Notes: a model not told the origin generated them from the letters alone. Shown: positions 17,463-54,122, numbered from the stretch's first letter. The stretch: DNA of 64,000 nt from Gemmatimonadales bacterium (GCA_035943095.1 DASZCN010000114.1:49170-113169), one strand, 5' to 3'. Made by a program: numbers and translations.

Positions 17463-17544
17463 TCAGGGAATATGCCTCGGGAAGCAAGAGTCGCCAGTCG
17501 GCGATGTGAGACGTCGGTTTTCGCTATGTGAGTGAGGAGCGCAG

Positions 17545-20262: not shown

Positions 20263-20306
20263 GGGTTGGGGAGGTTGGAGGAGGCTAGGGGACGTCCCCT
20301 AACCTT
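20263..20306. repeat. GGAGGTTGG-unit element (partial palindrome) in the divergent sigma/TetR intergenic region
   Basis: The sequence is gggttggggaggttggaggaggct-AGGGGACGTCCCCT-aacc. The centre is a perfect 14-bp palindrome (20287-20300). The C-rich arm is truncated. Confidence 0.6.
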
Positions 20307-20338
20307 GAATTCCCCGACGCCGGCCTGTAGCTTCCGAT

Positions 20339-20356
20339 TTCGAACGATCGTTCGAA
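20339..20356. promoter_or_regulatory. perfect 18-bp palindrome, candidate TetR operator
   Basis: TTCGAACGATCGTTCGAA ends 2 nt before the TetR ATG at 20359. Confidence 0.5.
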
Positions 20357-20358
20357 CT

Positions 20359-20964: not shown

Positions 20965-20970
20965 CGGCTC

Positions 20971-23210: not shown

Positions 23211-23248
23211 GGACGGTAGAAGACGGTAGAGGACGGTAGAGGACGGTA
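23209..23248 (+). repeat. 4 x 10-bp tandem repeat GA(G/A)GACGGTA filling the ALDH-thiolase spacer
   Basis: The sequence is gaggacggta gaagacggta gaggacggta gaggacggta. It starts inside the TGA stop (23208-23210) and ends in the ATG (23248-23250). Three of the four units carry a GAGGA Shine-Dalgarno core; the second unit reads GAAGA. Confidence 0.9.
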
Positions 23249-24438: not shown

Positions 24439-25196
24439 TGGCCGCCTACGATCGGGTACTCGTCGAAATCGTGAATGGCATCGGGACGGTCACCTTGAAC
24501 CGGCCCGAGAAGCTCAATGCGCTGGATCGGGCGCTCTGCGACGACCTGCGCGAGGCACTCACCATGCTCACTACGAGCGACGGTGTGCGCGTCGTGGTGA
24601 TCACGGGGGCGGGCCGCGCCTTCTGTGCCGGCGCGGACCTCGACGTTCTCGGGGCGGACGGGCCGGCGCTGGTCGCCGCCGGGAAGGAGGTAGCGCTCGC
24701 GCTCCGCGCGGCGCCGCAGCCGGTGCTCGCCGTGGTGAACGGACCGGCCGCGGGAGGCGGGGCGAACCTCGCCCTTGCCTGCGACTACCGGATCGCGTCC
24801 GAACACGCGTCGATCGGACAAGTGTTCGCCAAGCTCGGGCTGGTCCCCGATTGGGGCGGCTCGTTCTTCCTGCCACGCCTTGTGGGGCCCTCCAAGGCGC
24901 TCGAGCTGGTCTGGAGCGCGCGCATGGTGCCCGCCGCTGAGGCGCTGGCGCTCGGGCTGTTCGATCGCGTCGTGCCACACGGTGAGCTGCACACGGAGGC
25001 CCGTCGCCTCGGCGAGCTGTGGGCCGGACACCCGGCGGGCGCCGTGCGACGGGCCAAGGAAGCCCTGTACCGAAGCGACGCCAGCTCCCTCGGATCGATG
25101 CTCGATCTCGAGATCAGGCAGCAGACCGAACTCTTTGCCTCCCCCGAAGCGCGCGAGCGCATCGAGGGAGCGTCACTCGCCAAGAGGAGCCGCTGA
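24438..25196 (+). CDS. enoyl-CoA hydratase/isomerase family protein
   Basis: ATG at 24438 (TGATG junction) inside track ORF 23691-25196. It has GAGRAFCAGADLD and GPAAGGGANLALACDYR. Confidence 0.9.
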   Translation: MAAYDRVLVEIVNGIGTVTLNRPEKLNALDRALCDDLREALTMLTTSDGVRVVVITGAGRAFCAGADLDVLGADGPALVAAGKEVALALRAAPQPVLAVVNGPAAGGGANLALACDYRIASEHASIGQVFAKLGLVPDWGGSFFLPRLVGPSKALELVWSARMVPAAEALALGLFDRVVPHGELHTEARRLGELWAGHPAGAVRRAKEALYRSDASSLGSMLDLEIRQQTELFASPEARERIEGASLAKRSR

Positions 25197-26320
25197 TGGT
25201 TCGCAAACTGAACAACTTCGACGAATGGATCGACTACTTCCGCTACTGGCAGGACTCGATCGGCCTGCCCCAGGGCGAGATCCGGAGCTTCAAGTTCGAG
25301 GCCAAGTTCGGCGATCCGGAAGTGCCGCACATCGAGTTCGGTCATTACAAGGGCCAGCGGAAGTGGCCCACGGTGATGCACATTCCCGACCAGCGCATCC
25401 GCGACGCGCTGCTCAACCTCATCGTCTATCAGGGCGACACCGAATTCGCGTCCGTGGAGCAGCAGCGCAGCCTGTTGACGCACGCCCCCTCGGACTACGA
25501 TCTCTTGGCGCTGATGCGCGTGATGACTGAAGAGATGCGGCACGGGTGGCAGATGTCCTACCTGCTGTGCACGCACTTTGGGGACGAAGGCAAGCGCGAG
25601 GCGGCCAAGCTGCTCGAGCGCCGCGCCGACGACGGCGAACGGCTGCTCGGCTCCTTCAACGAGCTGGTCGACAACTGGCTCGATTTCTTCACGTACACGC
25701 AGTTCATCGATCGGGATGGAAAGTTCCAGCTCACCATGCTCTCGGTTTCCGCATTCGACCCGTTGTCGCGCTCGATGAACCCCATGCTCAAGGAGGAATC
25801 CTTCCACCTCGGCACCGGCAACAACGGGCTGCTCCGCATCGTGAAGGCCGGCAAGATGCCTCCCGAGGTGATCCAGCGCTTCTTCTATAAGTGGATTCCG
25901 ACGGCGTTCGACCTGTTCGGCACGGATAATTCGTCGTCGGCGCACTGGGCATACGTATGGGGCCTGAAGGGCCGCTACGACGAGCGTGAGCACCAGACCG
26001 AGCCGGACAAGGCGAAGCTGAACGAGCTGAGCCGGGAGCTGTACCGGCAGGAGATTGCGAAGCTGATCGAGCGCCTCAACATGTTCATCCCCGAGCGCGA
26101 TCGCTGGCTGCGGGTACCCGATACGAAATTCAACCGCAGGATCGGCGTCCACGCACACCAGCGGTACACAGTCGACGGCCAGCCGATCGACGACCCGACG
26201 AAATACACGGCGTATCTCACCACCGTCTTGCCTCAGCCCGAGCATTACGAGACGGTGCGCGGCATCGAGAAAGAGCCGGGCTGGATCGAGGCGAAGAAGG
26301 CGGATAGCCTGCTCAAGTGA
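25196..26320 (+). CDS. BoxB-like di-iron oxygenase (benzoyl-CoA oxygenase component B family), short form
   Basis: ATG at 25196 (TGATG) inside track ORF 25019-26320. It has QGDTEFASVEQQRSL, MTEEMRHGWQMSYLL, FIDRDGKFQL and LKEESFHLGTG, giving an E / ExxH / D / ExxH ligand pattern and strong resemblance to BoxB as I recall it. Confidence 0.75.
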   Translation: MVRKLNNFDEWIDYFRYWQDSIGLPQGEIRSFKFEAKFGDPEVPHIEFGHYKGQRKWPTVMHIPDQRIRDALLNLIVYQGDTEFASVEQQRSLLTHAPSDYDLLALMRVMTEEMRHGWQMSYLLCTHFGDEGKREAAKLLERRADDGERLLGSFNELVDNWLDFFTYTQFIDRDGKFQLTMLSVSAFDPLSRSMNPMLKEESFHLGTGNNGLLRIVKAGKMPPEVIQRFFYKWIPTAFDLFGTDNSSSAHWAYVWGLKGRYDEREHQTEPDKAKLNELSRELYRQEIAKLIERLNMFIPERDRWLRVPDTKFNRRIGVHAHQRYTVDGQPIDDPTKYTAYLTTVLPQPEHYETVRGIEKEPGWIEAKKADSLLK

Positions 26321-27015
26321 CCCTTGTCATCGCGCACCGGGGCGCGTCGGGCTACGAGTACGAGAACTCGCGGGCTGCGTTCCGGGCAGCCCGCGCCCGC
26401 GGCGCCGACGCGATCGAGCTGGACATCCACGCCGCCGCGGACGGCGTGCCGTTCGTGCACCATGACGAGGTCGTGAGCGGCACGCACATCACGCGCTCGA
26501 GCGCCGCGCAGGTGCGCTCCCTGCGACTGCCGAACGGCGAGTCCATCCCGACGCTCGAGGACGCCCTGGGCGTGATCGATCGGGCGCTGCAGGTCTTCAT
26601 CGAGGTCAAATCCCTGCCGCCGCAATTCGACGATCAGTTGTTTGCGGCGCTGGACAGCCCGGCGGGAGCGGGGTCAGGGGGCGGGACGCGCTGCGCCGTC
26701 CACGCGTTCGACCATCGGATCGTGCAGCGGCTCGGGCTCGCGCGCCCGGCCCTGGTGCGGGGCGTACTGTTGGCCTCCTATCCGCTCCGACCCCTGGAGG
26801 CGCTCCAGGACACCGGCGCCACCGTGCTGTGGCAGGAGCAGAGTCTCATCGACGCGGCGTTGGTCGACGCGCTGCATGGCGCGGGCTACCGGATCCACGC
26901 CTGGACCGTAAACGATCCTGAAGACATGCGAACCCTGCTCGGGCTCCACGTGGATGGACTGTGCACCAACGCTCCAGATGTGGGCCGGCACGCCGTCCAA
27001 CAGGGGCCGGGATGA
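26317..27015 (+). CDS. glycerophosphodiester phosphodiesterase family protein
   Basis: 232 aa with a GTG start (GTGA junction). It has IAHRGASGYEYENSRAAF and ELDIHAAADGVPFVHHDE. Confidence 0.85.
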   Translation: MTLVIAHRGASGYEYENSRAAFRAARARGADAIELDIHAAADGVPFVHHDEVVSGTHITRSSAAQVRSLRLPNGESIPTLEDALGVIDRALQVFIEVKSLPPQFDDQLFAALDSPAGAGSGGGTRCAVHAFDHRIVQRLGLARPALVRGVLLASYPLRPLEALQDTGATVLWQEQSLIDAALVDALHGAGYRIHAWTVNDPEDMRTLLGLHVDGLCTNAPDVGRHAVQQGPG

Positions 27016-27869
27016 GCGCCGGTCGTGTGGCGGTGATTGGCGCGGGCACGATGGGGCACGGGATCGCCTACGCCGCGGCCCTTGCGGGCTTCGAGGTGCG
27101 GCTCACCGACAGCAAGCCGGATGCGCTGCGCCTCGCCATGGGGCGCCTAAACGACCTCCTGGCGATCGCCGTGCGCCGCGGGAAGCTCACCGAACCCGAT
27201 CGGGACGCCGCCTCGACCCGGCTGCACGCGGAGGCGGACTTCGCGCCGGCGGTGCTCGAGGCGGACGTCGTGATCGAGGCCGTGCGCGAGCACCTGGGCA
27301 CCAAACAGCAGGTCTTCGCGGAGGTCGAGCGGGCGGCGCCGGCGAGCGCGCTGCTCGCGACGAACACCTCCTCACTCTCCGTGACCGCGATCGCCGCCGC
27401 CGTGCAGGACCCCGCCCGCGTGCTCGGCATGCACTTTTTCAATCCGGTGCACGCGATGAAGCTCGTCGAGGTGGTGACGCATCCGCAGACGGCGTCCCAG
27501 TCCGTCGAGCGGGCGGTGACGTTCGCCAAGGCTCTCGGGAAGGAGCCGATCGTGGTGAAGGATTCTCCGGGCTTCGCGTCCAGCCGCCTGGGCGTCGCGC
27601 TCGGTCTCGAAGCGATGCGGATGCTCGAGGAAGGCGTCGCATCCGCCGAGGACATCGACAAGGCGATGGAGCTCGGCTACAACCACCCGATGGGGCCGCT
27701 CAAGCTCACGGACATGGTCGGCCTCGACGTCCGCCTGGCGATCGCCGAGTATCTGTTCCAGGCGCTCGACGACCGCCGCTTCGAGCCCCCCCAGATCCTC
27801 CGCGACAAGGTCGCCCGAGGGGAGCTCGGCCAAAAGAGCGGAAAAGGGTTCTACAACTGGAGCGCGTGA
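27012..27869 (+). CDS. 3-hydroxyacyl-CoA / 3-hydroxybutyryl-CoA dehydrogenase
   Basis: ATG at 27012 (ATGA) inside track ORF 26961-27869. It has VIGAGTMGHGIA, LATNTSSLS, and HFFNPV followed by M.LVEV. Confidence 0.92.
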   Translation: MSAGRVAVIGAGTMGHGIAYAAALAGFEVRLTDSKPDALRLAMGRLNDLLAIAVRRGKLTEPDRDAASTRLHAEADFAPAVLEADVVIEAVREHLGTKQQVFAEVERAAPASALLATNTSSLSVTAIAAAVQDPARVLGMHFFNPVHAMKLVEVVTHPQTASQSVERAVTFAKALGKEPIVVKDSPGFASSRLGVALGLEAMRMLEEGVASAEDIDKAMELGYNHPMGPLKLTDMVGLDVRLAIAEYLFQALDDRRFEPPQILRDKVARGELGQKSGKGFYNWSA

Positions 27870-42134: not shown

Positions 42135-43355
42135 CTAGTCGACGAGATCTCCCAGCAGCTGCCTCGCAATCACGATTCGCTGGATCTCACTCGTCCCCTC
42201 CCCGATCTCGCAGATCTTGGCGTCGCGCATCATGCGCTCGACCGGGTAGTCGGTGGTGTAGCCATAGCCGCCGTGCAGCTGGACCGCCTTGGTGGTGGCG
42301 CGCATGGCGAGCTCCGAAGCGTAGAGCTTGGCCATCGCGGCCTCCTTCTTGAACGGCCGGCCCTGCTGCTTGAGCCACGCGGCGTGGTACACGAGGTGTG
42401 TGGCCGCCTCGATCTCGGTGGCCATGTCGGCGAGCGCGAAGTGGACGCCCTGGAAGGCGGCTATCGGCTTGCCGAATTGCCGCCGAGTCGTCGTGTAGCG
42501 CAGGCACTCTTCGAGCGCGCCTTCCGCGATCCCTAGCGCCAGCGCGCCCAGACCGATTCGGCCACCGTCGAGCGTATGGAGGAACTGCCGGAACCCATTG
42601 TTCACGGGTCCCAGGACGTTTTCCTTGGGGACGATCGCGTCCTGGAAGACCAGCTCGCGCGTATCCGACGCCCGCCAGCCGAGCTTGTCCTCCTTTTTCG
42701 CCGCCGCTACGCCGCGGCACTTGGGGAGAGAGGCCTCGTGGCCGACCCCGACGCGCTTCGCTTCCTCGAGGTCGGTCGTGTCCTTCGTGACGATGAATGC
42801 GGTGATCCCGTGCGTTTTCTGCGCTGCGGGATCGGTGCGGGCGGTCACGACGAAGATCTCGCCGACGCCGGCGTGGGTGATGAAGATCTTCGAGCCGTTC
42901 AGGACGTAGTGATCCCCCTGCTCTTCCGCCATCGTGCGGGTGCCCCCGGCATCCGACCCGGCGCCCGGCTCGGTGAGGCCGAACCCGCCCAGCACTTTGC
43001 CAGCGGCGAGCAGCGGCACGAATCTCCTCTTTTGCTCATCCGTTCCAAAATCCACAATGGGCGACGTGCCGAGCGTCGTGTGGGCGCTGATCGTGATGGC
43101 GTGGCTCGCATCGACCTTGGCGAGCTCGTGAATCACCATGATGTATGACAGGTAGTCCATGCCGCTGCCGCCCAAATGCTCTGGCCAGGGAATACCGAAC
43201 AGCCCCAGGTCGGCCATCTGACGCACGTTGTCCCACGGGAACGTGCTGTCGAGGTCGTGGCGACGGGCGCTGGGCTTCACGACCTGTTGCGCGAAGTCGC
43301 GCACCATGTCGCGCACTTGGAAATGATGATCGGTGAAATAGAGGGAGTCGTGCAT
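42135..43355 (-). CDS. acyl-CoA dehydrogenase
   Basis: 406 aa with [24 protein letters not shown] and [15 protein letters not shown]. Confidence 0.93.
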
Positions 43356-43452: not shown

Positions 43453-46164
43453 TTACCCCGTGGTCCCAAACCCCGCCGCGATGCAATTGATCGACATCAG
43501 GAGCGCGGCCAGGTGGTCCTGGGCCTGTTCCGGCGGCGCGGCGCGATAGCGACGCAGTAGCTCGATCTGCTGGCGGTTCACCTGATTGAGTGTCGGGAGG
43601 CGGCGCGCGAGCCGCTGGCGGAACTGGGGGAATCGCTCGGCGAGCCCCGCGCACCCGGTGAGGCGGCGCACGACGTCCAGCGTGCGATGGTACTCGTCCG
43701 TCACGAGCGTGAAGATTTCCTGGCGCACCCAGGGGTCCGCTACGAGGTCGGCGTACTGGCGGGCCAGCTCGAGATCCACATAGGCGAGCGTCTTTTCGGC
43801 CTCGTCCACGATCAGCCGAAACAGGCGGAAGTCGTTGAACATCCGTTTGAGCAGCGCCTCCCCGCGTGCGCCGCGGACTTCGAGAAAGGTTGCCACACCC
43901 GTTCCGACGCCGAACCACCCGGGAATGAAGTGCCGGTTCTGGGTCCAGGCGAACACCCACGGAATCGCACGCAGATCAGCCAGCGTCCGCACGCCGGTAC
44001 GGCGCGCGGGCCGCGACCCAATGTTCAAGAGCGCGATTTCCTCCACCGGGCTCGCGGCCTGAAAGTATGTCACGAGGTGCGGGTGCTCGACGACGCGGCG
44101 GTAGGCGGCGTGCGCGGCGCCCGACAACGCTTCCATCGCCTCGTCGAACTCGGTGGTGGGGACGAGCGCCTCCTCCCGCTCGGACTTGAGCGAATGCTCG
44201 AGGACGCTCGCCGCCAGGAGCTCGGTCTGGTACGCCGCGGTGCCGCGGTTGGCGTACTTGAATGACACGACCTCGCCCTGCTCGGTGAGGCGCAATCGGC
44301 CCTGGATGGATCCGGCCGGCTGGGCCGCGATCGCGCGTCCCGTGGGCGCGCCTCCCCGGCTGACGGAGCCGCCGCGGCCGTGGAAGAACGCGATCGGCAC
44401 GCCGCACTCCCGTCCCAGGCGTGTGAGTCGGAGCTGCGTCTTGGCAAGCTCCCAGTTAGAAGACAGGAAGCCACCGTCCTTATTCGAGTCCGAGTAGCCG
44501 ATCATCACTTCGAACACTCCGCCCTGCGCCCGGACGCTGCGACGCACGAGCGGCACCTGGAGGAGCTCGCGCATGATGTCGGGCGCCCGGCGCAGATCGT
44601 CGATGGATTCGAACAGTGGGACGATCGGGAGCGTACAGCTCTCCGTGCCCGCCGCGTCTGCGAAGAGGCCTGCGTGCTTGGCCAGGAGGTGGACACCCAG
44701 CACGTCCGCCGCGTCGTGCGTCATGCTGAGGACAAAGCTCCCGATCGCTTCGCGGTCGAGCCGGTCGCGCATCTCATGGATGAGCTGGAAGAGGCCGCAC
44801 AGCTCCGCGGCTTCCGGTGGTGGCGCGGCACGATCTCCCTGCAGGGGGCGGCCCAGCTCGGTCACGAGCCAGGCGCGCCAGGCGGCCGATGTTGGTTCCG
44901 GGAGGGGGGGCTCGCCGGGATGGCGCGCGCGCCACAACGCCGCCAGGGCCGCGGTCACGCGGGGTGAGTTATCCCGTACGTCGAGCCGGAACGTGCTGAA
45001 CCGGAAGGCTTCGACCTCACGGCGCAGCGGCCGCACCAGGAGATTCGCGACGGTGGCACAGCCTGCGGCGATCAGGCCCGCCTCGAGCGTGCGCAAGTCC
45101 GCGACGAGCTCGTCGGCCGTCGCGTACCCGCCGTGACCCGCCTCGCTCGCCAGCGCCTGGTCCAGCCGGCGAAGCATGCAGGTCGCGTATTGCCGGAAGA
45201 CCTCACCCGGGTTGCGCCGCTGGATGCGCTCCGCGTCGCCCGACTCGGCGAGCAGACGGTTCAGCGCGTCACGAAACTGCGGTGCGATCGGCGTCGCCCG
45301 CTCGGTCGGACTCAACGCCCGGAGAAGGTCGCCGAGGCGCTGGCGATACCGCCGCAGGCTGGCCGTCCGGTTTTCCAGCAGCGTGCGGCGCGTGACATCG
45401 TTCGTGACGAAGGGATTGCCGTCCCGGTCGCCACCGATCCACGAGCCGAACTGGAAGAACGGCGGCACGTCGTATTGCTCTTCCGGATAGGCCTGCCGCA
45501 GGGCGCGCTCGAGCTTTTCCACCAGCTCGGGGACGACCTCAAAGAGATTCTCGTTGACGAAGTACAGCCCCCAGGCGAGCTCCTGGTCCACGGTAGGCTT
45601 CTCGAGGCGTAGCTCGCCGCTGAGCCACAACAGCTCGATCTCGGTCCGGAGATTGTCCACGAGGGCGGTGCGCTCCCGCGGGGTCCACCGCGGGGTCTCG
45701 AGATCCACCAATCGCCGATAGATGCGGCGATGCTTCTCGAGCACGGTCACGCGCTTGGCCTCGGTGGGGTGCGCCGTGATCACGGGCCGCACGCGCAGAC
45801 TGGCGACCAAGGCGCGCACTTCTTGCGGTGCGAGGCCCGCCCGTGCGGCGGACGAGACCACGTGTGCGAACGTCCCCCGGACTTGCTCGTGGCCGCGCTC
45901 GACCTCGCTCTGGCGTCGCTGGCGCATCGCGGCGTTCTGCTCCGCGATGGACAGCAGCTGGAACCACATCCCCTGGGCTTGAATGGCTCGAGCCACGAGG
46001 TCGGGTGGCGCGCCCGCATCGAGCGGCTCGCCCTGGAGCACGCGCTCGATCTCCGGATGGTGCGTGCGAATGACGTCGAGAAGGCAATCGTGCAGCAGAC
46101 CCGCCGTGCCTCTCAGGTACTCGGCGGTGTCGACGAGGACGAAGGCAGCCGCGGGTGACGTCAC
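43453..46164 (-). CDS. ppc: phosphoenolpyruvate carboxylase
   Basis: 903 aa with VITAHPTEAKR, GYSDSNKDGG, and a C-terminal ...AAGFGTTG. Confidence 0.95.
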   Translation of the reverse strand: MTSPAAAFVLVDTAEYLRGTAGLLHDCLLDVIRTHHPEIERVLQGEPLDAGAPPDLVARAIQAQGMWFQLLSIAEQNAAMRQRRQSEVERGHEQVRGTFAHVVSSAARAGLAPQEVRALVASLRVRPVITAHPTEAKRVTVLEKHRRIYRRLVDLETPRWTPRERTALVDNLRTEIELLWLSGELRLEKPTVDQELAWGLYFVNENLFEVVPELVEKLERALRQAYPEEQYDVPPFFQFGSWIGGDRDGNPFVTNDVTRRTLLENRTASLRRYRQRLGDLLRALSPTERATPIAPQFRDALNRLLAESGDAERIQRRNPGEVFRQYATCMLRRLDQALASEAGHGGYATADELVADLRTLEAGLIAAGCATVANLLVRPLRREVEAFRFSTFRLDVRDNSPRVTAALAALWRARHPGEPPLPEPTSAAWRAWLVTELGRPLQGDRAAPPPEAAELCGLFQLIHEMRDRLDREAIGSFVLSMTHDAADVLGVHLLAKHAGLFADAAGTESCTLPIVPLFESIDDLRRAPDIMRELLQVPLVRRSVRAQGGVFEVMIGYSDSNKDGGFLSSNWELAKTQLRLTRLGRECGVPIAFFHGRGGSVSRGGAPTGRAIAAQPAGSIQGRLRLTEQGEVVSFKYANRGTAAYQTELLAASVLEHSLKSEREEALVPTTEFDEAMEALSGAAHAAYRRVVEHPHLVTYFQAASPVEEIALLNIGSRPARRTGVRTLADLRAIPWVFAWTQNRHFIPGWFGVGTGVATFLEVRGARGEALLKRMFNDFRLFRLIVDEAEKTLAYVDLELARQYADLVADPWVRQEIFTLVTDEYHRTLDVVRRLTGCAGLAERFPQFRQRLARRLPTLNQVNRQQIELLRRYRAAPPEQAQDHLAALLMSINCIAAGFGTTG

Positions 46165-47147
46165 GCCACGCGGTCGCGTGGAGGCGCGCCCGCGAAGAAG
46201 GTCTTCAAGTTGTCGAGTGCCCGCAGACCCATCGCCACACGGGTCTCCTCGGTCGCGCTCCCCAGGTGAGGGAGCAGCACGACGTTCTCCATCGTCAGGA
46301 GCTCGGGGGACACGGCGGGCTCCCGCTCAAAGACGTCGAGCCCCGCTCCGGCGATCGTGCCCTGCGTGAGCGCCGCCACGAGGGCAGCTTCATCCACGAT
46401 GTCCCCGCGGGCATTGTTGATGAGAAACGCCCCGCGCTTCATCAAGCCGAGCCGTCGGGCGTCGATCAGGTGGCGGGTTTCTGGTGTGGCGGGCGAATGT
46501 AGCGAGACAAAATCCGCCTCCCGCAGCACGTCGTCCACGGTGGCACGTGGCTCCGCCCCCAGCGCCGCTACCACGGTGGGTGGAGGGGCGTAAGGATCGT
46601 GGAAGATCACGCGCATGCCGAAGCCGTGGTGCGCGCGGTGCGCCACCGCGCGGCCAATCCGGCCGAGTCCGATGAGTCCCAGAGTCTTACCGCTCACCCG
46701 GGTGCCGAGCAGGTAGGTCGGTCGCCACCCGGTCCACGCGCCCGCCCGTAACTGACGCTCCCCTTCCCCACCGCGCCGCGCCACCATCAGCATGAGCAAG
46801 ATCGCGTCGTCGGCGGTATCGTCGGTGAGCACGTCGGGCGTGTTGGTCACGACCAACCCGCGGGCCTTCGCGGTCGCGGTTTCGATGTTGTTGAACCCCA
46901 CGCCGTAGTTGGCGATGATGCGGACCTTCAGTGGCTCGACGCTGAGCACCTGCGCCGTGAGCCGGTCGCTGACGGTGGGCACCAGCGCATCGGCGGTCCG
47001 CAACGCCTCGGCGAGCTCCGTAGCGCTGAAGGTATGGTCATCTGCGTTCAACCTGGCGTCGAACGCGTTGATCATCTGCTCCTCCACGGGCCCGGGCAGC
47101 CGGCGGGTGACGACCACCGTCGGGCGCCCGGAGCGTCCCGCGCTCAC
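46161..47147 (-). CDS. D-isomer-specific 2-hydroxyacid dehydrogenase (glyoxylate/hydroxypyruvate reductase type)
   Basis: 328 aa with GLIGLGRIGRAVA, NNARGDIVDE and PHLGSAT. It overlaps both neighbours by 4 nt. Confidence 0.9.
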   Translation of the reverse strand: MSAGRSGRPTVVVTRRLPGPVEEQMINAFDARLNADDHTFSATELAEALRTADALVPTVSDRLTAQVLSVEPLKVRIIANYGVGFNNIETATAKARGLVVTNTPDVLTDDTADDAILLMLMVARRGGEGERQLRAGAWTGWRPTYLLGTRVSGKTLGLIGLGRIGRAVAHRAHHGFGMRVIFHDPYAPPPTVVAALGAEPRATVDDVLREADFVSLHSPATPETRHLIDARRLGLMKRGAFLINNARGDIVDEAALVAALTQGTIAGAGLDVFEREPAVSPELLTMENVVLLPHLGSATEETRVAMGLRALDNLKTFFAGAPPRDRVA

Positions 47148-48058
47148 CGCTCGACCATCACCGGCCGGGACGGCTGCCGCGCGAGGGCGTGCGCCACCGT
47201 GGCTCCGAGCTCGGCAGGGCTGGGTGCCACGGTCAGCCCGGCCGACCGCATGATCTCGGCTTTCTCGGCGGCGGTGTCACCGAACGCGGAAATGATCGCG
47301 CCGGCGTGCCCCATGCGGCGCCCCTTGGGTGCGGTGAGGCCCGCGACGTACCCGATCACCGGCTTGGTCATCTGTTCCTTGACGAACATCGCGGCGTCGG
47401 CCTCCTGAGGACCGCCGATCTCACCGATCATCACCACTGCCTGCGTCTCCGCGTCCTGCTCGAACAGGGCGAGCATATCGACGAAGGAGCTCCCGTTGAT
47501 CGGATCGCCGCCGATCCCGACGCTGGTCGTGATGCCGATGCCCAGCGCCTGCATTTGGGCCGCCGCCTCGTAGCCGAGCGTCCCGGACCGCGTGACGACA
47601 CCGACCGTGCCGCGCGTATAGATGTGTCCCGGCATGATGCCCATCATCGCCTGGCCCGCGCTGATCACTCCGGCGCAGTTCGGCCCAATGAGCGTGGTGC
47701 GCCGGTCCTTGGCGTAGCGCCAGAGATACCGTTTCACACGAATCATGTCCTGCGCGGGCACGCCGTCGGTGATCGTCACCACGAGGCGGAGCCCCGAGTC
47801 CGCCGCCTCCATGATCGCGTCGGCACAGAACGGCGCGGGAACGAGGATGAGGCTCGCGGCGGCGCCGGTGCGCTCCACTGCCTCCTTCACCGTGTTGAAG
47901 ACCGGCCGCCCGAGATGCTCGCCGCCACCCTTGCCTGGCGTCACGCCGCCGACGACGTTCGTCCCGTAGGCGATCATCTCCTTGGCGTGGAAGGTGCCCT
48001 TGTCGCCCGTGAAGCCCTGGACGATGACGCGTGTCTTCTCGTCGAGCAGGATGCTCAT
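47144..48058 (-). CDS. sucD: succinate/malate--CoA ligase alpha subunit (SucD/MtkB family; context suggests malate thiokinase)
   Basis: ATG at 48058 (ATGA) inside track ORF 47144-48259. It has [23 protein letters not shown] and the phospho-His loop [10 protein letters not shown]. Confidence 0.92.
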
Positions 48059-49230
48059 GCGGCGAGGCCCGCGTCGCGGGCGGCCACGACACGCTCGGCG
48101 GCTTCCGAGAGCGTGTCCGCCGTGTGGATCGCGAGACCGCTCTCCTTGAGGATGCGGCGTCCCTCTTCGACGTTGGTTCCCGCGAGGCGTACCACCAGCG
48201 GTACGGGCACCCGAACTTCCCGCACCGCCTGCACGACCCCTTGAGCCACCCAGTCGCACCGATTGATTCCCGCGAACACGTTCACGAGGATCGCGCGGAC
48301 GTTCTTGTCGGAGAGAACGAGCCGAAACGCGGCAGCGACGCGATCGGGGCTCGCGCCGCCTCCGATGTCGAGGAAGTTCGCGGGCTCGCCCCCGGCGTGC
48401 TTGATCATGTCCATCGTCGCCATGGCGAGTCCGGCCCCATTGATGATGCAGCCGATGTCGCCCTCCAGCGCCACGTAGTTCAGGCCGTGCTCTGCCGCCT
48501 CCACCTCGCGCGGATCCTCTTGCGCGTAGTCACGCAGCTCGGCCACGTTGGGACGCCGGAACATCGCGTTGTCGTCGAAGCTCATTTTCACGTCGAGGGC
48601 GAGGACCTGGCCCTCCTTGGTGACGACGAGCGGATTGATCTCGACCATGGTCGCGTCGAGCTCGCGAAACGCCTGATAGGCACCGAGGATGGCGGTCACC
48701 GCCTGGCTGACCCGTGCTGGGGCGAGACCCAGGCCGAACCCGAGCTCCCGGGCCTGGAACGCCTGCATCCCGACGGCGGGCTCTACCACCTCGCGCAGGA
48801 TCGCCGCGGGCTCCCGCTGCGCGATCTCTTCGATCTCCATGCCGCCGTGCGGGTGGGCCACGACGACGATGCGCTCGCGCTTGCGGTCGAGCACCAACCC
48901 GACGTATAGCTCGCGTTCGATCGGGAGTGCCTGCTCGACGAGCAGGCGATGGACGGGGAGACCTTCCGGGCCGGTCTGGGTGGTGACGAGCGTCTTGCCG
49001 AGCAGCTCCTTTGCGGCCTGGCGCACGTCGGCGTCGGTCGAGCACAGTCGGATGCCACCTGCCTTGCCACGGGCGCCGGAATGGATCTGCGCCTTCACCA
49101 CCCACCGCAGGCCGCCGATCTCGCTGGCGCGATACACCGCCTGCTCGGCACTGTAAGCGACCCCGCCCTTCGGGACAGGGACCCCGAACCCGGTGAGCAG
49201 CTCCTTGGCCTGGTACTCGTGAATGTCCAC
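48055..49230 (-). CDS. sucC: succinate/malate--CoA ligase beta subunit (SucC/MtkA family; context suggests malate thiokinase)
   Basis: 391 aa with a GTG start. It has [12 protein letters not shown] and an ATP-grasp domain. The segment [14 protein letters not shown] deviates from the E. coli SucC FGGIVRCDLIA. Confidence 0.92.
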
Positions 49231-49233
49231 GGG

Positions 49234-50211
49234 CTATGCTCGTGCCGCGGCAAGCGGAGCGGGAGCGCCTTTCGAGCGGGCCGCGATCGCGGAGGCGATC
49301 TGGACGATGTTCTGAGCCATGCGCGCCGAGGCGGCGTCGATCATGCGGCCGTCGAGCTGCGCGGCTCCCCGGCCCGCCCGCGCCGCCTCGTCCAAGGCGA
49401 GGAGGATGCGGCGGGCGCGGTCCACCTCCGCGGGGGGCGGCGTGAACACATCGTTGGCGAGCGGTATCTGCGATGGGTGGATGGCCCACTTCCCCTCGTA
49501 GCCAAGGGCGGCTGCTCGCCGCGCGGCGGCCACGTATCCGTCCGGGTCCTTGAAGTCGCCGTAGGGGCCGTCGATCGGACGCAGGCCGTAGGCACGGCAG
49601 GCGGTTACCATGCGCGCGAGCGCGGCGTGCCATTGATCGCCCGGGTAATCGGGATTCAGCCCGCCAATGCTCACCGTCCGGGCCCGGAGGCTCGCGGCGA
49701 GATCCGCGACGCCGAAGTGCATCGCCTCGAGCCGGCGGCTCGCCTGCGCGATCGCCTCGACGTTGGCCATGCCGAGTGCCGTCTCGATCAGGACGTCGAT
49801 CCCGATGCGGTGGGGGATCTGCCGCGCCGTCTCGATCTGGGTGAGGAGGGCGTCCACGAGATACACGTCGGCAGGGACCCCGACCTTCGGCACGAGGACG
49901 ACGTCGAGCCTGTGGCCCGCCTGCTCGACCACGTCGACCATATCCCGGTACATGTAGTGCGTGTCGATCCCGTTGACGCGAACCGAGACCGTCTTGCCCC
50001 GTCCCTTCCAGTCGTGCTCGAGCAAGCCGGCCACCACGTTCTTCCGGGCCTGCTCCTTGTCGGCGGGCGCGACGGCATCCTCGAGATCGAGAAAGACGTA
50101 GTCGGCCTCCCCGTCCAGCGCCTTCTGGAACATCGCGGGCTGTGAGCCGGGTACTGCGAGCTCGCTGCGCTGCAGCCGGGGATGCGCCGGCTCGTACCGA
50201 GTGAGACTCAT
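49234..50211 (-). CDS. malyl-CoA lyase-like HpcH/CitE family aldolase
   Basis: ATG at 50211 (ATGA) inside track ORF 49234-50613; 325 aa. It has SELAVPGSQPAMFQKA, FLDLEDAVAP, VRVNGIDT..YRD, GKWAIHPSQI..AN.VFTP. It is collinear with Mcl1-type malyl-CoA lyases as I recall them. Confidence 0.85.
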   Translation of the reverse strand: MSLTRYEPAHPRLQRSELAVPGSQPAMFQKALDGEADYVFLDLEDAVAPADKEQARKNVVAGLLEHDWKGRGKTVSVRVNGIDTHYMYRDMVDVVEQAGHRLDVVLVPKVGVPADVYLVDALLTQIETARQIPHRIGIDVLIETALGMANVEAIAQASRRLEAMHFGVADLAASLRARTVSIGGLNPDYPGDQWHAALARMVTACRAYGLRPIDGPYGDFKDPDGYVAAARRAAALGYEGKWAIHPSQIPLANDVFTPPPAEVDRARRILLALDEAARAGRGAAQLDGRMIDAASARMAQNIVQIASAIAARSKGAPAPLAAARA

Positions 50212-51467
50212 GCCCTCACGGCCGCGCGCGGAGTCGCCTTCCCGCCGACCGGCTGCTGCGGGTCGGGCGACTGGGGCGTGGCGGCGCGCCCCGGGAGCGG
50301 GGCGGCCGTGCCGCGATAGTATTCGGCGGCGGCGGCCACACCGCTCCCCGGGGTGACCTGGATGCCGACGTCCCGCATCGCCATTTCCGCGCCGGCGATC
50401 GCGCCGAGCAGCATCAGCTCGTTCAGGTCTCCGAGGTGGCCGATGCGGAACAGCTTGCCCGCCATGCGGGCCAGACCAGCTCCGAGCGCGAGGTTGTAGC
50501 GTCGGTACGCGACGTCGATGACGTCGGCGCCGTTCGCACCCTCCGGGACCAGGATCGCGCTCACCGTGTCCGAATGCCATTTCGGGGCTCGGGCGCAGAG
50601 CTTCAACCCCCACGCGCGCACGGCGGCGCGCACACCCTCGGCCAACCGATGATGGCGGGCGAAGATGGTGTCGAGCCCTTCCTCGAACATGATGGCGAGC
50701 GATTCCCGCAGTCCGTACAGCATGGGGATGGACGGTGTGTAGGGGAAGTAGCCGCTCGCGTTGGCCTTGAGCATGTCACCGAAATCGAAGAACACGCGGG
50801 GGCAGCGGGCGCTCTCACGAGCGGCGAGTGCCTTCGGGCTCGCGCACACGATGCCCAACCCGGCGGGCAGCATGAGCCCCTTCTGAGAACCGGTGATCGC
50901 GAGGTCGACCTTCCATTCGTCCATCCGGAAATCAATGGAGCCGATCGAGCTGACGCCGTCCACATAGAGCAGCGCGGGATGACGCGCGGCGTCCATCGCC
51001 GTTCGCACGGCGCCAATGTCGCTCGTGACACCGGTGGCCGTCTCATTATGCACGATCAGCACGCCCTTGATCTCATGGCTGTTGTCCTGCGACAGGATCT
51101 CACCGATGCGATCGGCCGGAGCACCCTCGCCCCACTCCACGTCGACGATGTCCACGCGCAGGCCGTGGCGCTGCGCCAAGTCGATCCAGAGATGACTGAA
51201 CTGACCGTACCGCGGGGCGAGCACCCGGTCCCCCGGGGAGAGCGTGTTGACGAGGGCCGCTTCCCACCCGCCCGTGCCGGTGGCCGGGAAGATGAAGGCC
51301 TGCCCTGTCGCGGTCTGGAAGACGCGCTTCAAGTCCCGAAATAGTGGAACAGCGAGCTCGGGAAACGCGGACGAGCGGTGATCCTCCATGGCGCGATTCA
51401 TCGCGCGCAGGATTCGCTCGGGCACGTTGGTGGGGCCAGGGACGAACAGGAAATTGCGGCCGGGCAT
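50208..51467 (-). CDS. class V aminotransferase, serine--glyoxylate / alanine--glyoxylate aminotransferase type
   Basis: ATG at 51467 inside track ORF 50208-51938. It has NFLFVPGPTNVPERIL, HNETATGV and the PLP-Lys motif ITGSQKGLMLPAGLG. There is a roughly 30-aa Pro/Ala tail. Confidence 0.88.
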   Translation of the reverse strand: MPGRNFLFVPGPTNVPERILRAMNRAMEDHRSSAFPELAVPLFRDLKRVFQTATGQAFIFPATGTGGWEAALVNTLSPGDRVLAPRYGQFSHLWIDLAQRHGLRVDIVDVEWGEGAPADRIGEILSQDNSHEIKGVLIVHNETATGVTSDIGAVRTAMDAARHPALLYVDGVSSIGSIDFRMDEWKVDLAITGSQKGLMLPAGLGIVCASPKALAARESARCPRVFFDFGDMLKANASGYFPYTPSIPMLYGLRESLAIMFEEGLDTIFARHHRLAEGVRAAVRAWGLKLCARAPKWHSDTVSAILVPEGANGADVIDVAYRRYNLALGAGLARMAGKLFRIGHLGDLNELMLLGAIAGAEMAMRDVGIQVTPGSGVAAAAEYYRGTAAPLPGRAATPQSPDPQQPVGGKATPRAAVRA

Positions 51468-51487
51468 AAGACACGTCCTCGAGAAAG

Positions 51488-51522
51488 GAGAAAAACAAAG
51501 CGAGAACCGCCGGCTCTCGCTT
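51488..51522 (-). terminator. rho-independent terminator after recQ
   Basis: On the minus strand the stem aagcgaga/tctcgctt (8 bp, 9-nt loop) is followed by TTGTTTTTCTCC. It sits in an AT-richer patch between recQ and the aminotransferase. Confidence 0.65.
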
Positions 51523-51615
51523 AAGCTACTCGCGCTAACGTATTCCGCGACCCCGACGCCGCAACCACACGGATGGGTAGGAATCGCCCCGCCTAAGTTG
51601 AGGGGCAACAACTCA

Positions 51616-52851: not shown

Positions 52852-53175
52852 CTAGGCGCGGTCGCTCCAGTCCACGGCGTAGGAGTTGCCGCACTCGTGG
52901 CACTTCACTTCCTTCGGCTGCCCTCCGACGTGCTGGCGCTTGTGACACCCGGGACAGACCAGATGGGGCTCGTGGACCACGCTCCATGATTTGGGGCGAT
53001 CCTTGCGGACTTCGAGGCTCTCTTTGGGAACGCGGAGCTCCACGTGGTGCACCTCGAGCACCACCCACGGTTGCCCGGACTCCTCCACGATGCGATACCA
53101 AGCGCCGCGGCGGAGGCCTTCCTTCTCTGCGCGATCTCCGCGGCTCCGTGCCCATCCGCTGTCGGTCCGACTCAT
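52852..53175 (-). CDS. small 'WAR-RRGAWYR' + zinc-ribbon protein, paralogue 3 (unknown function)
   Basis: 107 aa with GWARS, GLRRGAWYRIV, PKSWSVV and LVCPGCHKRQH-x8-CHECG...VDWSDRA. Confidence 0.8.
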   Translation of the reverse strand: MSRTDSGWARSRGDRAEKEGLRRGAWYRIVEESGQPWVVLEVHHVELRVPKESLEVRKDRPKSWSVVHEPHLVCPGCHKRQHVGGQPKEVKCHECGNSYAVDWSDRA

Positions 53176-53522
53176 GCGCGGTCACTCCAGTCCACAGGAT
53201 AGGTTTTGTGGCACTTCGGACACTCCGACTCCTTCGGACGGCCGCTCAAGTGCTGGCGCGTGTGGCAGCCGGGACAGACGAAATACATGCGATGAGCCTC
53301 GTCGGCGCCCTGTGCGGGGGTGAGTCGAACCAGGCTCCAGGTCTTCGGCTGGCTGCGCCGAACGAGCAGGTGGTCACGTGTGATGCGGACGTGCACGTCG
53401 TTGACGTCGAGCAGCAACCAGCCTTCGCCCTGGTCATCCAGCACCTGGTACCACTCGCCCCGGCGCAGCCCCCGCTCCTCGGCGAACGCTCCGCTGCCGC
53501 GCGCCCACCCGATTGCGCTCAT
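53172..53522 (-). CDS. small 'WAR-RRGEWYQ' + zinc-ribbon protein, paralogue 4 (unknown function)
   Basis: 116 aa from the ATG at 53522 (TTG at 53525 is also possible). It overlaps paralogue 3 as ATGA. It has GWARG, GLRRGEWYQVL, PKTWSLV and FVCPGCHTRQH-x8-CPKCH...VDWSDRA. Confidence 0.8.
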   Translation of the reverse strand: MSAIGWARGSGAFAEERGLRRGEWYQVLDDQGEGWLLLDVNDVHVRITRDHLLVRRSQPKTWSLVRLTPAQGADEAHRMYFVCPGCHTRQHLSGRPKESECPKCHKTYPVDWSDRA

Positions 53523-53527
53523 CAACC

Positions 53528-53914
53528 CTACGCCTGTTCCTCCGTGGCTCCGTCGCGGACGAGCACCAGGATCGCCGCTTGTGGCACCACGAGGTACCTG
53601 GCGCCGTCGAAGGTGATTTCCACCGCTGCCTTACGGAAAAACAGTGCATAGTCGCCCATGCGGGCCTGCATCGGCAGATACTTCACGTCGGGCCCGCGAA
53701 TCTTCCACGGCTCGTCGTCCATGCTAGCGGGCTCGGTCGTCGGGGTGCCCGGGCCCGTTGCGACGACGCGGCCACCCTGCACCTGCCGCGCCTCCACTGC
53801 GGTCGGCGGCAGGTAGAGACCGACGTTCGTGCGCTCTTCCCCCTCCTCGGGGGCGATCAGCACACGGTCGCCCACGACGATCAGCCGTTTGGGCGAAGAA
53901 GGCTCATCCGGCAT
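53528..53914 (-). CDS. GroES/Cpn10-like protein (orphan, no groEL adjacent)
   Basis: ATG at 53914 inside track ORF 53528-54028; 128 aa. GDRVLIAPEEGEERTNVGLYLP...GGRVVATGPG...MGDYALF...LVVPQAAILVLV parallels GroES (DRVIVK...GGIVL...GEVLAVG...GD.V.F...ILAIV). Confidence 0.65.
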   Translation of the reverse strand: MPDEPSSPKRLIVVGDRVLIAPEEGEERTNVGLYLPPTAVEARQVQGGRVVATGPGTPTTEPASMDDEPWKIRGPDVKYLPMQARMGDYALFFRKAAVEITFDGARYLVVPQAAILVLVRDGATEEQA

Positions 53915-54122
53915 GGGCACCAGTATACCACTTCGGTTCGACTGCAGGCGAGGCAGAAGGCTAGAGGAGTGGCGCAGTTCGGTCGTTTTGGCGGCTCCTT
54001 CGGGGATGGTGATGTAGATCACGCTCACAGGCGGAGCAGCACCTTAATAATGCGCCCCTGCCGCGGAGCTACCGCGGCCGCCCCATCCGCGTTCCCCCCC
54101 TTTTGGGAAGGGACTAAAGACA

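What the first reader, a model, noticed from the sequence alone, without database searches (positions are those of the whole stretch)
43453..51467. Six translationally coupled genes matching the signature set of the serine cycle (sga-mcl-mtkA-mtkB-hpr-ppc)
The minus-strand order is: class V serine/alanine-glyoxylate aminotransferase, malyl-CoA-lyase-like HpcH/CitE aldolase, CoA-ligase beta subunit, CoA-ligase alpha subunit, D-2-hydroxyacid (hydroxypyruvate/glyoxylate) reductase, and PEP carboxylase. The junctions are ATGA, a 3-nt gap, ATGA, a 4-nt overlap and a 4-nt overlap. In Methylobacterium-type methylotrophs the genes sga, hprA, mtkA, mtkB, ppc and mcl are the diagnostic serine-cycle genes and are clustered. 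Here all six form one apparent operon, with no C1-transfer genes (mtdA, fch) and no methanol or methylamine oxidation genes in the window. That points to a glyoxylate/C2 interconversion module rather than a TCA-cycle sucCD locus: glyoxylate + serine -> hydroxypyruvate -> glycerate ... PEP -> OAA -> malate -> malyl-CoA -> glyoxylate + acetyl-CoA.
Basis: partly seen in the sequence, partly recalled or inferred. Interest (0 to 1): 0.65.

Follow-up and report, generated by a model that had tools for sequence, protein, structure and literature searches.

The report
Serine-cycle operon in a soil Gemmatimonadetes
Six tightly packed genes in this soil Gemmatimonadetes genome encode the core enzymes of the serine cycle, a known route for building biomass from one-carbon compounds such as methanol, and both the gene set and its order have been described before.

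Summary
Window 43453-51467 (minus strand) holds sga, mcl, mtkA, mtkB, hpr and ppc, with junctions of -4, +3, -4, -4 and -4 nt. The ligase beta subunit passes NCBI's malate--CoA ligase model (692 bits, cutoff 604; SucC model 547). The lyase is 66% identical to the solved Methylobacterium extorquens malyl-CoA lyase. Five proteins are collinear and 56-70% identical with the methylamine-induced serine-cycle operon of Aminobacter pMET1.

The organism is a soil Gemmatimonadetes. The operon and its flanks are conserved across dozens of relatives' contigs. The same six-gene order also occurs in uncultured Gammaproteobacteria, and it matches the published 'type I' order of Mesorhizobium, Sinorhizobium and Hyphomicrobium, which likewise lacks mtdA/fch.

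So missing C1 genes in the window do not argue against C1 assimilation. A named relative, 13_1_20CM_69_28 (MtkA 90% identical), is listed in Butterfield et al. 2016 with PQQ dehydrogenase, Fae/H4MPT and serine-cycle genes.

Verdict: an ordinary new member of a known kind; low interest. Side observations: a conserved promoter block upstream of sga with a CCTACCC box resembling the alphaproteobacterial SecR operator but no SecR gene nearby; a variable 5'-UTR hairpin; and an acyl-CoA dehydrogenase conserved after ppc.

The parts
50208..51467 (-). sga: class-V PLP serine--glyoxylate aminotransferase (419 aa)
   Evidence: Pfam Aminotran_5. Best PDB match is Arabidopsis serine--glyoxylate aminotransferase 6pk1, E 1.5e-150. 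It scores 616 bits on the BhcA model, below the 650 cutoff. Sga proteins from Mesorhizobium, Hyphomicrobium, Roseovarius and Methylococcaceae serine-cycle clusters score in the same range, 572-619. 61% identical to the Aminobacter pMET1 operon-IV Sga. The SQK PLP-lysine motif is present.
49234..50211 (-). mcl: malyl-CoA lyase (325 aa)
   Evidence: Best PDB hit is 5ugr, M. extorquens malyl-CoA/beta-methylmalyl-CoA lyase: E 1.2e-124, 66% identity over 309 aligned residues. The CitE model scores 168 bits against a cutoff of 443. 70% identical to the pMET1 lyase.
48055..49230 (-). mtkA: malate--CoA ligase (malate thiokinase) beta subunit (391 aa)
   Evidence: NCBIfam NF010647 'malate--CoA ligase subunit beta' scores 691.7 bits, above the 604 cutoff; the SucC model scores 547. 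68% identical to pMET1 'malate--CoA ligase subunit beta'.
47144..48058 (-). mtkB: malate--CoA ligase alpha subunit (304 aa)
   Evidence: CoA_binding + Ligase_CoA domains. The GHAGA phosphohistidine motif is present. ATGA-coupled to mtkA. 67% identical to the pMET1 alpha subunit. No model specific to the Mtk alpha subunit matched, so the assignment rests on pairing and synteny.
46161..47147 (-). hpr: D-2-hydroxyacid dehydrogenase, inferred hydroxypyruvate (glyoxylate) reductase (328 aa)
   Evidence: 2-Hacid_dh + 2-Hacid_dh_C domains. The NCBIfam glyoxylate reductase model scores 301 bits, below cutoff. hpr genes from Mesorhizobium, gammaproteobacterial and Methylococcaceae clusters score the same, 301-315. 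56% identical to pMET1 'D-glycerate dehydrogenase'. PDB matches: 1gdh Hyphomicrobium glycerate dehydrogenase 213 bits, Pyrococcus glyoxylate reductase 252 bits.
43453..46164 (-). ppc: phosphoenolpyruvate carboxylase (903 aa)
   Evidence: Pfam PEPcase scores 796 bits over nearly the full length. The NCBIfam PEPC model scores 760 bits, below the 815 cutoff. The TAHPTE, GYSDSNKDGG and FHGRGGSVSRGG motifs are present. The start overlaps the hpr stop (GTGA).
51468..51615 (-). recQ-sga intergenic region with a conserved promoter-like block and 5' leader
   Evidence: Elements in order: CCTACCC box, 9 nt, TTGCGG (-35-like), 16 nt, TACGTT (-10-like), hairpin 51522-51498 plus a T-run, GAGGAC ribosome-binding site, ATG. 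The block is conserved in 38 distinct upstream variants from relatives' contigs. No Rfam family matches.
42135..43355 (-). acd: short-chain-type acyl-CoA dehydrogenase (406 aa), possible seventh co-transcribed gene
   Evidence: Four Acyl-CoA_dh domains. Best NCBIfam match is acryloyl-CoA reductase AcrC, 445 bits, below the 640 cutoff. It lies on the same strand 97 nt after ppc in the window, and about 18-50 nt after ppc in relatives L001, L004, L008 and L015. No terminator-like site is predicted between ppc and acd. It is absent after ppc in L007, so membership in the operon is uncertain.

Best explanation
The six genes are one operon encoding the dedicated enzymes of the serine cycle in a soil Gemmatimonadetes bacterium.

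Proposed route:
- Sga transfers the amino group of serine to glyoxylate, giving hydroxypyruvate and glycine.
- Hpr reduces hydroxypyruvate to D-glycerate.
- Glycerate kinase and enolase, encoded elsewhere, give PEP.
- Ppc carboxylates PEP to oxaloacetate.
- Malate dehydrogenase, encoded elsewhere, gives malate.
- MtkAB activates malate to malyl-CoA at the cost of ATP.
- Mcl cleaves malyl-CoA to acetyl-CoA, the product, and glyoxylate, which is recycled.
- Glycine plus methylene-H4F is converted back to serine by GlyA, encoded elsewhere. This is where C1 units enter, most likely from lanthanide-dependent (XoxF) methanol oxidation.

Translational coupling gives balanced co-expression. Transcription probably starts from a conserved sigma-70-like promoter in the recQ-sga spacer, possibly under an activator that binds the CCTACCC box.

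Shown here: gene identities, orthology, operon structure, conservation, and gene complements of relatives. Inferred: enzyme activities, direction of flux, the C1 source, and regulation.
For: Gene structure and coupling.

Enzyme identity:
- MtkA passes the equivalog model (692 bits, cutoff 604) and beats SucC by 145 bits.
- Mcl is 66% identical to M. extorquens Mcl 5ugr.
- Sga and Hpr score on the NCBIfam models like the Sga and Hpr of proteobacterial serine-cycle clusters.
- Five proteins are collinear and 56-70% identical with Aminobacter NyZ550 pMET1. That operon (sga, mcl, mtk, mtk, hpr, gck) is methylamine-induced and SecR-dependent (PMC13199381).

Conservation:
- The same operon and flanks occur in relatives, including NCBI MAG GCA_003220795.1 and about 45 metagenome contigs.
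- Gemmatimonadota form their own clade in an Mcl+MtkA+MtkB tree.
- In sister Gemmatimonadota (L007, L009, L011, L012, L032) a MOFRL/DUF4147 glycerate-2-kinase gene sits divergently next to sga. This adds another serine-cycle step to the locus.

C1 link:
- An MtkA 90% identical to the window's belongs to Gemmatimonadetes bacterium 13_1_20CM_69_28.
- Butterfield 2016 Fig. S4 lists that genome with PQQ biosynthesis, PQQ-dependent dehydrogenase, Fae, H4MPT genes and serine-cycle genes.
- The paper states that these Gemmatimonadetes have the H4MPT pathway, the H4F-to-serine route and the canonical malate-intermediated serine pathway. It also reports that their methanol dehydrogenase was the most abundant soil protein.
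Against: No C1-oxidation, H4F or H4MPT gene, and no glyA, gck, eno or mdh, lies in this 64-kb window. The C1 link for this particular genome therefore rests on relatives and the literature. No Gemmatimonadetes has been shown experimentally to grow on or assimilate methanol through this pathway. Hpr belongs to a family whose members also reduce glyoxylate, and Sga-type enzymes are promiscuous, so substrate assignments are inferential. The route of glyoxylate regeneration (isocitrate lyase or the ethylmalonyl-CoA pathway) was not established. mcl-mtkAB modules also occur in organisms not known as serine-cycle methylotrophs, such as SAR11, Nitrosomonas and Thioglobus, so these enzymes can serve other purposes.
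Confidence: 0.7

Rival explanations
1. C1-independent glyoxylate/C2 module. The operon assimilates glycolate- or glyoxylate-derived carbon, or converts C3 plus CO2 into acetyl-CoA plus glyoxylate (a natural analogue of the synthetic malyl-CoA-glycerate idea), with no net C1 input.
For: No C1 genes lie in the window. The operon lacks mtdA/fch, unlike the Methylobacterium cluster. Related mcl-mtkAB modules occur in non-methylotrophs. Hpr-family enzymes also reduce glyoxylate.
Against: Clusters of the same order without mtdA/fch are bona fide C1-assimilation operons in Aminobacter, Mesorhizobium and Hyphomicrobium. Genomes of relatives are reported to encode XoxF, PQQ, Fae/H4MPT and H4F-to-serine genes. 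Turning glycine back into serine needs a C1 unit in any case, so the chemistry is the serine cycle whichever substrate feeds it. The two roles are not mutually exclusive.
Confidence: 0.2
2. Reverse, energy-conserving malate-synthase-like operation. Mcl condenses acetyl-CoA and glyoxylate to malyl-CoA, and MtkAB runs backwards to give malate plus ATP. This would serve acetate or fatty-acid growth; an acyl-CoA dehydrogenase gene lies next door.
For: Mcl is reversible and acts as the condensing enzyme in the ethylmalonyl-CoA pathway (established biochemistry, cited from memory). An acyl-CoA dehydrogenase is conserved just after ppc.
Against: This does not explain why sga, hpr and ppc are translationally coupled to mcl-mtkAB, nor the linkage to glycerate kinase in sister lineages. 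The acd gene is not linked in all Gemmatimonadota.
Confidence: 0.07
3. An ordinary TCA-cycle succinyl-CoA synthetase locus that happens to sit next to a CitE-type lyase.
For: Public annotation of the relatives' protein reads 'succinate--CoA ligase subunit beta'. The alpha subunit matches only SucD models.
Against: The malate--CoA ligase equivalog model passes its cutoff and outranks SucC by 145 bits. The neighbours are sga, mcl, hpr and ppc, not TCA genes. The lyase matches Mcl at 1e-124 against CitE-type chains at 1e-35 or worse.
Confidence: 0.02

Closest known systems
[quoted passage not shown] NyZ550 pMET1 operon sga-mcl-mtk-mtk-hpr-gck (PMC13199381)
   Same: Same genes in the same order, and no mtdA/fch in the cluster. 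Proteins are 56-70% identical and collinear. A CCYACCC-type motif lies about 85-118 nt upstream of the sga start codon in both groups.
   Different: No SecR (NarL/LuxR-type) gene lies next to the operon, anywhere in the 64-kb window, or in relatives' flanks. ppc is fused into the operon by a 4-nt overlap, and gck is not in it. The host is a different phylum, and the proteins form a separate deep clade.
[quoted passage not shown]
   Same: The same six serine-cycle enzymes. Mcl is 66% identical to the solved M. extorquens enzyme.
   Different: The gene order differs, and mtdA and fch are absent here (for the reference order; for their absence). The window's Mcl lacks a loop of about 15 residues after the NPDYP motif.
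Soil Gemmatimonadetes MAGs of Butterfield et al. 2016 and Diamond et al. 2019 (e.g. 13_1_20CM_69_28, GCA_003220795.1)
   Same: Same operon, same flanks (recQ upstream; acd, S9 peptidase, RNase G and L21 downstream). Proteins are 74-96% identical. Already described as putative XoxF methylotrophs with a serine pathway.
   Different: The window is a distinct genome: its exact MtkA sequence is not on record, and the best match is 97%. The papers I read report pathway presence; my term searches in them found no description of the operon structure.
Uncultured Gammaproteobacteria with sga-mcl-mtkA-mtkB-hpr-ppc (L013, L014, L016, L020, L037, L042, L049, L052, L055, L059)
   Same: Identical six-gene order.
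   Different: Only 48-75% identity. The intergenic gaps are larger rather than 4-nt overlaps (coordinates). No CCYACCC box was found in the expected position, about 85-130 nt upstream of sga.

Membership tests
Serine cycle (core gene set sga, hpr, mtkA, mtkB, mcl, ppc) | Malate--CoA ligase beta subunit distinct from SucC | tested here: met
   NF010647 scores 691.7 bits, above the 604 cutoff; the SucC model scores 547.
Serine cycle (core gene set sga, hpr, mtkA, mtkB, mcl, ppc) | Malyl-CoA lyase of the Mcl type, not CitE or a citramalyl-CoA lyase | tested here: met
   5ugr at E 1e-124 and 66% identity. CitE-type chains score 1e-35 or worse; the CitE model gives 168 bits against a 443 cutoff.
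Serine cycle (core gene set sga, hpr, mtkA, mtkB, mcl, ppc) | Serine--glyoxylate aminotransferase ortholog | tested here: met
   6pk1 SGAT at 1.5e-150. Its score on the BhcA model falls in the same sub-cutoff range as Sga from proteobacterial serine-cycle clusters. 61% identical to pMET1 Sga. Substrate preference was not tested.
Serine cycle (core gene set sga, hpr, mtkA, mtkB, mcl, ppc) | Hydroxypyruvate reductase and PEP carboxylase linked to the above | tested here: met
   hpr and ppc are joined to the operon by 4-nt overlaps. hpr is orthologous to cluster hpr genes. PEPcase matches over nearly the full length.
Serine cycle (complete pathway) | glyA, glycerate kinase, enolase and malate dehydrogenase present in the genome | not testable with these tools
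   None lies in the window, and the rest of the genome is not available. gck sits next to sga in sister Gemmatimonadota. Relatives are listed with these genes in Butterfield Fig. S4.
Serine cycle (complete pathway) | A C1 supply: methanol/methylamine oxidation plus H4MPT and H4F modules | not testable with these tools
   Absent from the window. Reported for relatives 13_1_20CM_69_28 and others.
Serine cycle (complete pathway) | Glyoxylate regeneration from acetyl-CoA (isocitrate lyase or the ethylmalonyl-CoA pathway) | not tested
   No icl, ccr or ecm gene was seen in the window. Only an NADP-isocitrate dehydrogenase is present, at 12105-13532.
SecR-regulated serine-cycle clusters (types I-IV, PMC13199381) | A secR gene adjacent to the cluster | tested here: not met
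   tblastn with two SecR proteins (from L054 and L041) found nothing in the window, in Gemmatimonadota loci or in 120 metagenome loci.
SecR-regulated serine-cycle clusters (types I-IV, PMC13199381) | A CCYACCCG operator upstream of sga | tested here: inconclusive
   CCTACCCA lies at about -115 from the ATG and is conserved in the window's clade. The full palindrome matches with 3 mismatches. Five such matches occur in the window against 2.7 expected by chance, so it is significant only by position.
TCA-cycle succinyl-CoA synthetase locus | SucC is the best model and the context is TCA genes | tested here: not met
   The MtkA model outranks SucC, and the neighbours are sga, mcl, hpr and ppc.
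Beta-hydroxyaspartate cycle (bhcABCD) | BhcA above its cutoff, with bhcB, bhcC and bhcD adjacent | tested here: not met
   The BhcA model scores 616 bits, below the 650 cutoff. No bhcBCD-type genes appear in the window-wide Pfam scans.

The most novel reading that the evidence does not exclude
The serine-cycle operon of soil Gemmatimonadetes may be switched on through a SecR-like operator: a CCTACCC box 9 nt upstream of the -35-like hexamer, bound by a regulator encoded elsewhere in the genome. That would mean the cis-regulatory logic of the serine cycle is shared between Alphaproteobacteria and a distant phylum. Alternatively or in addition, the operon may run as a C1-independent glyoxylate/acetyl-CoA module in members that lack methanol dehydrogenase.
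Probability: 0.15. Interest if true: 0.45.

Novelty: new member of a known kind. Interest (0 to 1): 0.22.

Why it matters
Soil Gemmatimonadetes are abundant, and their XoxF methanol dehydrogenase was the most abundant protein in one grassland soil proteome. This operon is the assimilatory half of that putative methylotrophy. The window adds a clean, fully coupled example and a well-defined promoter region that could be used for reporter or expression studies. It does not change what is known. A practical point: public annotations of the relatives' MtkA as 'succinate--CoA ligase' are misleading and can hide the pathway in automated metabolic reconstructions.

Tried and rejected
- Exact-sequence look-up of the window's MtkA found nothing on record, so the source genome could not be identified.
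- The first genome scan, with a 17-sequence Mcl alignment, failed because no stretch was conserved enough. A 5-sequence alignment worked.
- A riboswitch or attenuator in the sga leader: no Rfam match. The hairpin is missing from about 40% of relatives' variants and lacks a T-run in the L004-type clade. Rejected as a conserved regulatory RNA.
- A regulon search with the box plus -35 pattern in metagenomes: all non-sga hits fall inside long ORFs, so they are coding or chance matches.
- The full SecR palindrome with fixed 2-nt spacing is not enriched, even upstream of alphaproteobacterial sga. Only the 7-mer half-site is enriched.
- SecR homologs: none in the window or in any Gemmatimonadota flank.
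- The BHAC, CitE and sucCD readings were considered and rejected.
- Recent horizontal transfer from a proteobacterial genus was rejected: Gemmatimonadota form their own deep clade (a neighbour-joining tree without support values).

Full report
**Observation.** The region 43453-51467 carries six minus-strand genes.

| Gene | Coordinates | Length | Start codon |
|---|---|---|---|
| sga | 50208-51467 | 419 aa | ATG |
| mcl | 49234-50211 | 325 aa | ATG |
| mtkA (beta) | 48055-49230 | 391 aa | GTG |
| mtkB (alpha) | 47144-48058 | 304 aa | ATG |
| hpr | 46161-47147 | 328 aa | GTG |
| ppc | 43453-46164 | 903 aa | GTG |

The junctions are an ATGA overlap, a 3-nt gap, an ATGA overlap, a GTGA overlap and a GTGA overlap. 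The sequence is about 68% G+C, and the chosen frames have high third-position G+C.

**Enzyme identities.**
- Pfam gives Aminotran_5, HpcH_HpaI, ATP-grasp_2+Ligase_CoA, CoA_binding+Ligase_CoA, 2-Hacid_dh and PEPcase.
- The ligase beta subunit scores 691.7 bits on NCBIfam NF010647 'malate--CoA ligase subunit beta' (cutoff 604). It scores 547 on the SucC model.
- The lyase's best solved relative is Methylobacterium extorquens malyl-CoA lyase 5ugr: E 1.2e-124, 66% identity over 309 aligned residues, with one loop of about 15 residues missing. CitE-type chains are at 1e-35 or worse.
- The aminotransferase's best solved relative is plant serine--glyoxylate aminotransferase 6pk1, at 1.5e-150.
- Its best NCBIfam hit is BhcA, at 616 bits, below the 650 cutoff. 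I calibrated this: Sga proteins from the serine-cycle clusters of Mesorhizobium, Hyphomicrobium, Roseovarius, a gammaproteobacterium and a Methylococcaceae MAG score 572-619 on the same model. Their Hpr proteins score 301-315 on the glyoxylate-reductase model, like the window's 301. The window's Sga and Hpr therefore behave as orthologs of the cluster enzymes, not as BhcA.
- Motifs expected for activity are present (residue roles cited from memory): GHAGA in the alpha subunit, SQK in Sga, and TAHPTE, GYSDSNKDGG and FHGRGGSVSRGG in Ppc.

**Organism and conservation.**
- MtkA homologs of 88-97% identity are numerous in soil metagenomes. Where named, they are Gemmatimonadetes or Gemmatimonadales. 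The window's exact protein is not on record.
- Long contigs of relatives keep the whole neighbourhood: recQ, then sga-mcl-mtkA-mtkB-hpr-ppc-acd, then S9 peptidase, RNase G and L21. These include NCBI MAG GCA_003220795.1.
- A genome-collection scan with an Mcl alignment returned 80 loci. tblastn of the window proteins on them gave these patterns:
  - The identical six-gene order in other Gemmatimonadales and in at least ten uncultured Gammaproteobacteria.
  - The sga-mcl-mtkA-mtkB core in Hyphomicrobium, Mesorhizobium, Ensifer and roseobacters.
  - mcl-mtkAB alone in SAR11, Nitrosomonas and Thioglobus.
- In a neighbour-joining tree of Mcl+MtkA+MtkB, the Gemmatimonadota form their own deep clade, plus one MAG labelled Actinobacteria. 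The operon therefore looks vertically inherited within the phylum.
- In five sister Gemmatimonadota loci, a DUF4147+MOFRL glycerate-2-kinase gene lies divergently next to sga. The window has no such gene.

**What is already known.**
- A 2026 paper classifies alphaproteobacterial serine-cycle clusters (PMC13199381). [quoted passage not shown] The Methylobacterium type V is the one that contains mtdA and fch.
- In Aminobacter sp. NyZ550 the plasmid operon sga-mcl-mtk-mtk-hpr-gck is induced by methylamines and depends on SecR. I fetched that locus. The window's proteins are collinear with it and 61, 70, 68, 67 and 56% identical.
- Butterfield et al. 2016 (PMC5103831) reported three things for soil Gemmatimonadetes. 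[quoted passage not shown] They have the H4MPT pathway and the H4F-to-serine route. They contain the canonical malate-intermediated serine pathway.
- The MtkA cluster P0078, 90% identical to the window's, is the protein of Gemmatimonadetes bacterium 13_1_20CM_69_28. That genome is listed in their Fig. S4 with PQQ biosynthesis, PQQ-dependent dehydrogenase, Fae, H4MPT and serine-cycle genes. The column headers in that file are garbled by machine reading, so I use only the clearly legible ones.

**Interpretation.** The hint that missing mtdA/fch and C1-oxidation genes point to a special glyoxylate/C2 module is not. I confirmed that the window has no C1 gene, no second CoA-ligase pair and no LuxR-type regulator. 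But that is the normal state of the widespread type I cluster, and relatives keep their C1 modules elsewhere in the genome. The best explanation is therefore the ordinary serine cycle, most likely fed by XoxF-dependent methanol oxidation. A C1-independent glyoxylate role is a minority alternative and is compatible with it. Activities, flux direction, C1 source and glyoxylate regeneration remain inferred.

**Regulatory region.** The 148-nt recQ-sga spacer is conserved. In order it holds:
- a CCTACCC box;
- 9 nt, then TTGCGG (-35-like);
- 16 nt, then TACGTT (-10-like);
- an 11-bp hairpin followed by a T-run (51522-51498);
- a GAGGAC ribosome-binding site and the ATG.

A metagenome scan with the box plus -35 pattern returned 120 loci. 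About 45-50 of them are this same recQ-sga spacer from Gemmatimonadetes, and the rest lie inside long ORFs. The 38 distinct spacer variants keep the box and both hexamers. The hairpin is absent from about 40% of variants, partly duplicated in one, and shows one A-T to C-G compensatory change. No Rfam family matches.

The box resembles the SecR operator half-site CCYACCCG. The 7-mer has a background of 0.16 per kb. It is found within 250 nt upstream of sga in the window's clade and in many alphaproteobacterial loci, several at a similar distance from the start codon. The full palindrome matches only with three mismatches, and five such matches occur in the window against 2.7 expected by chance. 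No SecR homolog is present in the window or in any Gemmatimonadota flank. I treat this as a lead, not a finding.

**Verdict.** The feature is real, correctly read at the gene level, and ordinary. It is a new member of a known kind of operon in a lineage where the pathway has already been reported.

Noticed in passing
window 51550-51581 (minus strand), within the recQ-sga spacer 51468-51615: Conserved block CCTACCCATCCGTGTGGTTGCGG: a CCTACCC box 9 nt upstream of a -35-like TTGCGG, followed 16 nt later by a -10-like TACGTT. The box resembles the alphaproteobacterial SecR operator half-site CCYACCCG and lies at a similar distance from the sga ATG. No SecR gene lies in the window or in relatives' flanks.
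   Followed up: partly
window 51498-51522 (minus strand): Terminator-like 11-bp hairpin plus a T-run, 31 nt before the sga start codon and downstream of the putative promoter. It is present in about 60% of relatives' spacer variants, deleted in others and partly duplicated in L140. It shows one compensatory A-T to C-G change, and there is no Rfam match.
   Followed up: partly
window 42135-43355 (minus strand): A short-chain-type acyl-CoA dehydrogenase (best match AcrC-like, below cutoff) directly follows ppc on the same strand with no predicted terminator between them. The position is conserved in L001, L004, L008 and L015 but not in L007. It may be a seventh operon gene of unknown relevance.
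   Followed up: partly
window 52852-53175 and 53172-53525 (minus strand): Two tandem paralogous small ORFs (107 and 117 aa) that overlap by 4 nt. Both end in a CPGCH...C..C...VDWSDRA zinc-ribbon-like tail and have no Pfam hit. Genes of similar size occupy the same position between a GroES-like gene and recQ in relatives (L001, L004).
   Followed up: no
window 53528-54028 (minus strand): A Cpn10/GroES-like protein of 166 aa with an N-terminal extension of about 50 residues. No adjacent groEL gene appears in the window.
   Followed up: no
window 20263-27869 (plus strand): A CoA-dependent degradation cluster: TetR regulator, enoyl-CoA hydratase, aldehyde dehydrogenase (StyD/BADH-like), thiolase, a PaaA/BoxB-like di-iron protein (the BoxB model matches only residues 115-288, 216 bits against a 499 cutoff), GDPD, and 3-hydroxyacyl-CoA dehydrogenase.
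   Followed up: no
L007 1822-3198, L009, L011, L012, L032 (sister Gemmatimonadota loci): A DUF4147+MOFRL glycerate-2-kinase gene lies divergently next to sga. In L007 an IS-type DDE transposase gene is beside it. The window's clade has recQ in this position instead.
   Followed up: partly
P0078 / OLB50845.1 and relatives: Public records name the relatives' MtkA 'succinate--CoA ligase subunit beta'. JGI and newer NCBI records name it malate--CoA ligase. This annotation inconsistency can hide the serine cycle in automated reconstructions.
   Followed up: yes
L010 (MAG labelled Actinobacteria, CANGPO010000011.1): It carries mcl-mtkA-mtkB that are 72-77% identical to the window's and branches inside the Gemmatimonadota clade. 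This suggests mis-binning, mislabelling or horizontal transfer.
   Followed up: no
L023, L024, L035, L038 and others (Pelagibacteraceae); L056, L057, L067, L069 (Nitrosomonas); L036, L077 (Thioglobus): mcl-mtkA-mtkB occur as a three-gene module without an adjacent sga (one Pelagibacter locus, L029, has a divergently oriented sga-like gene at 45% identity), hpr or ppc. None of these organisms is known as a serine-cycle methylotroph. The role of the module there was not examined.
   Followed up: no
window 49234-50211 (Mcl), after the NPDYP motif: Relative to M. extorquens Mcl (5ugr), the window's enzyme lacks a surface loop of about 15 residues (SVLTDKDEAGNRQTHWQ region). Some database homologs share the deletion and others keep the loop.
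   Followed up: no
window 17544-17627 (minus strand): tRNA-Leu(CAA), the only RNA gene detected in the window. The surrounding 15-19.6 kb region contains several ORFs without any Pfam match.
   Followed up: no
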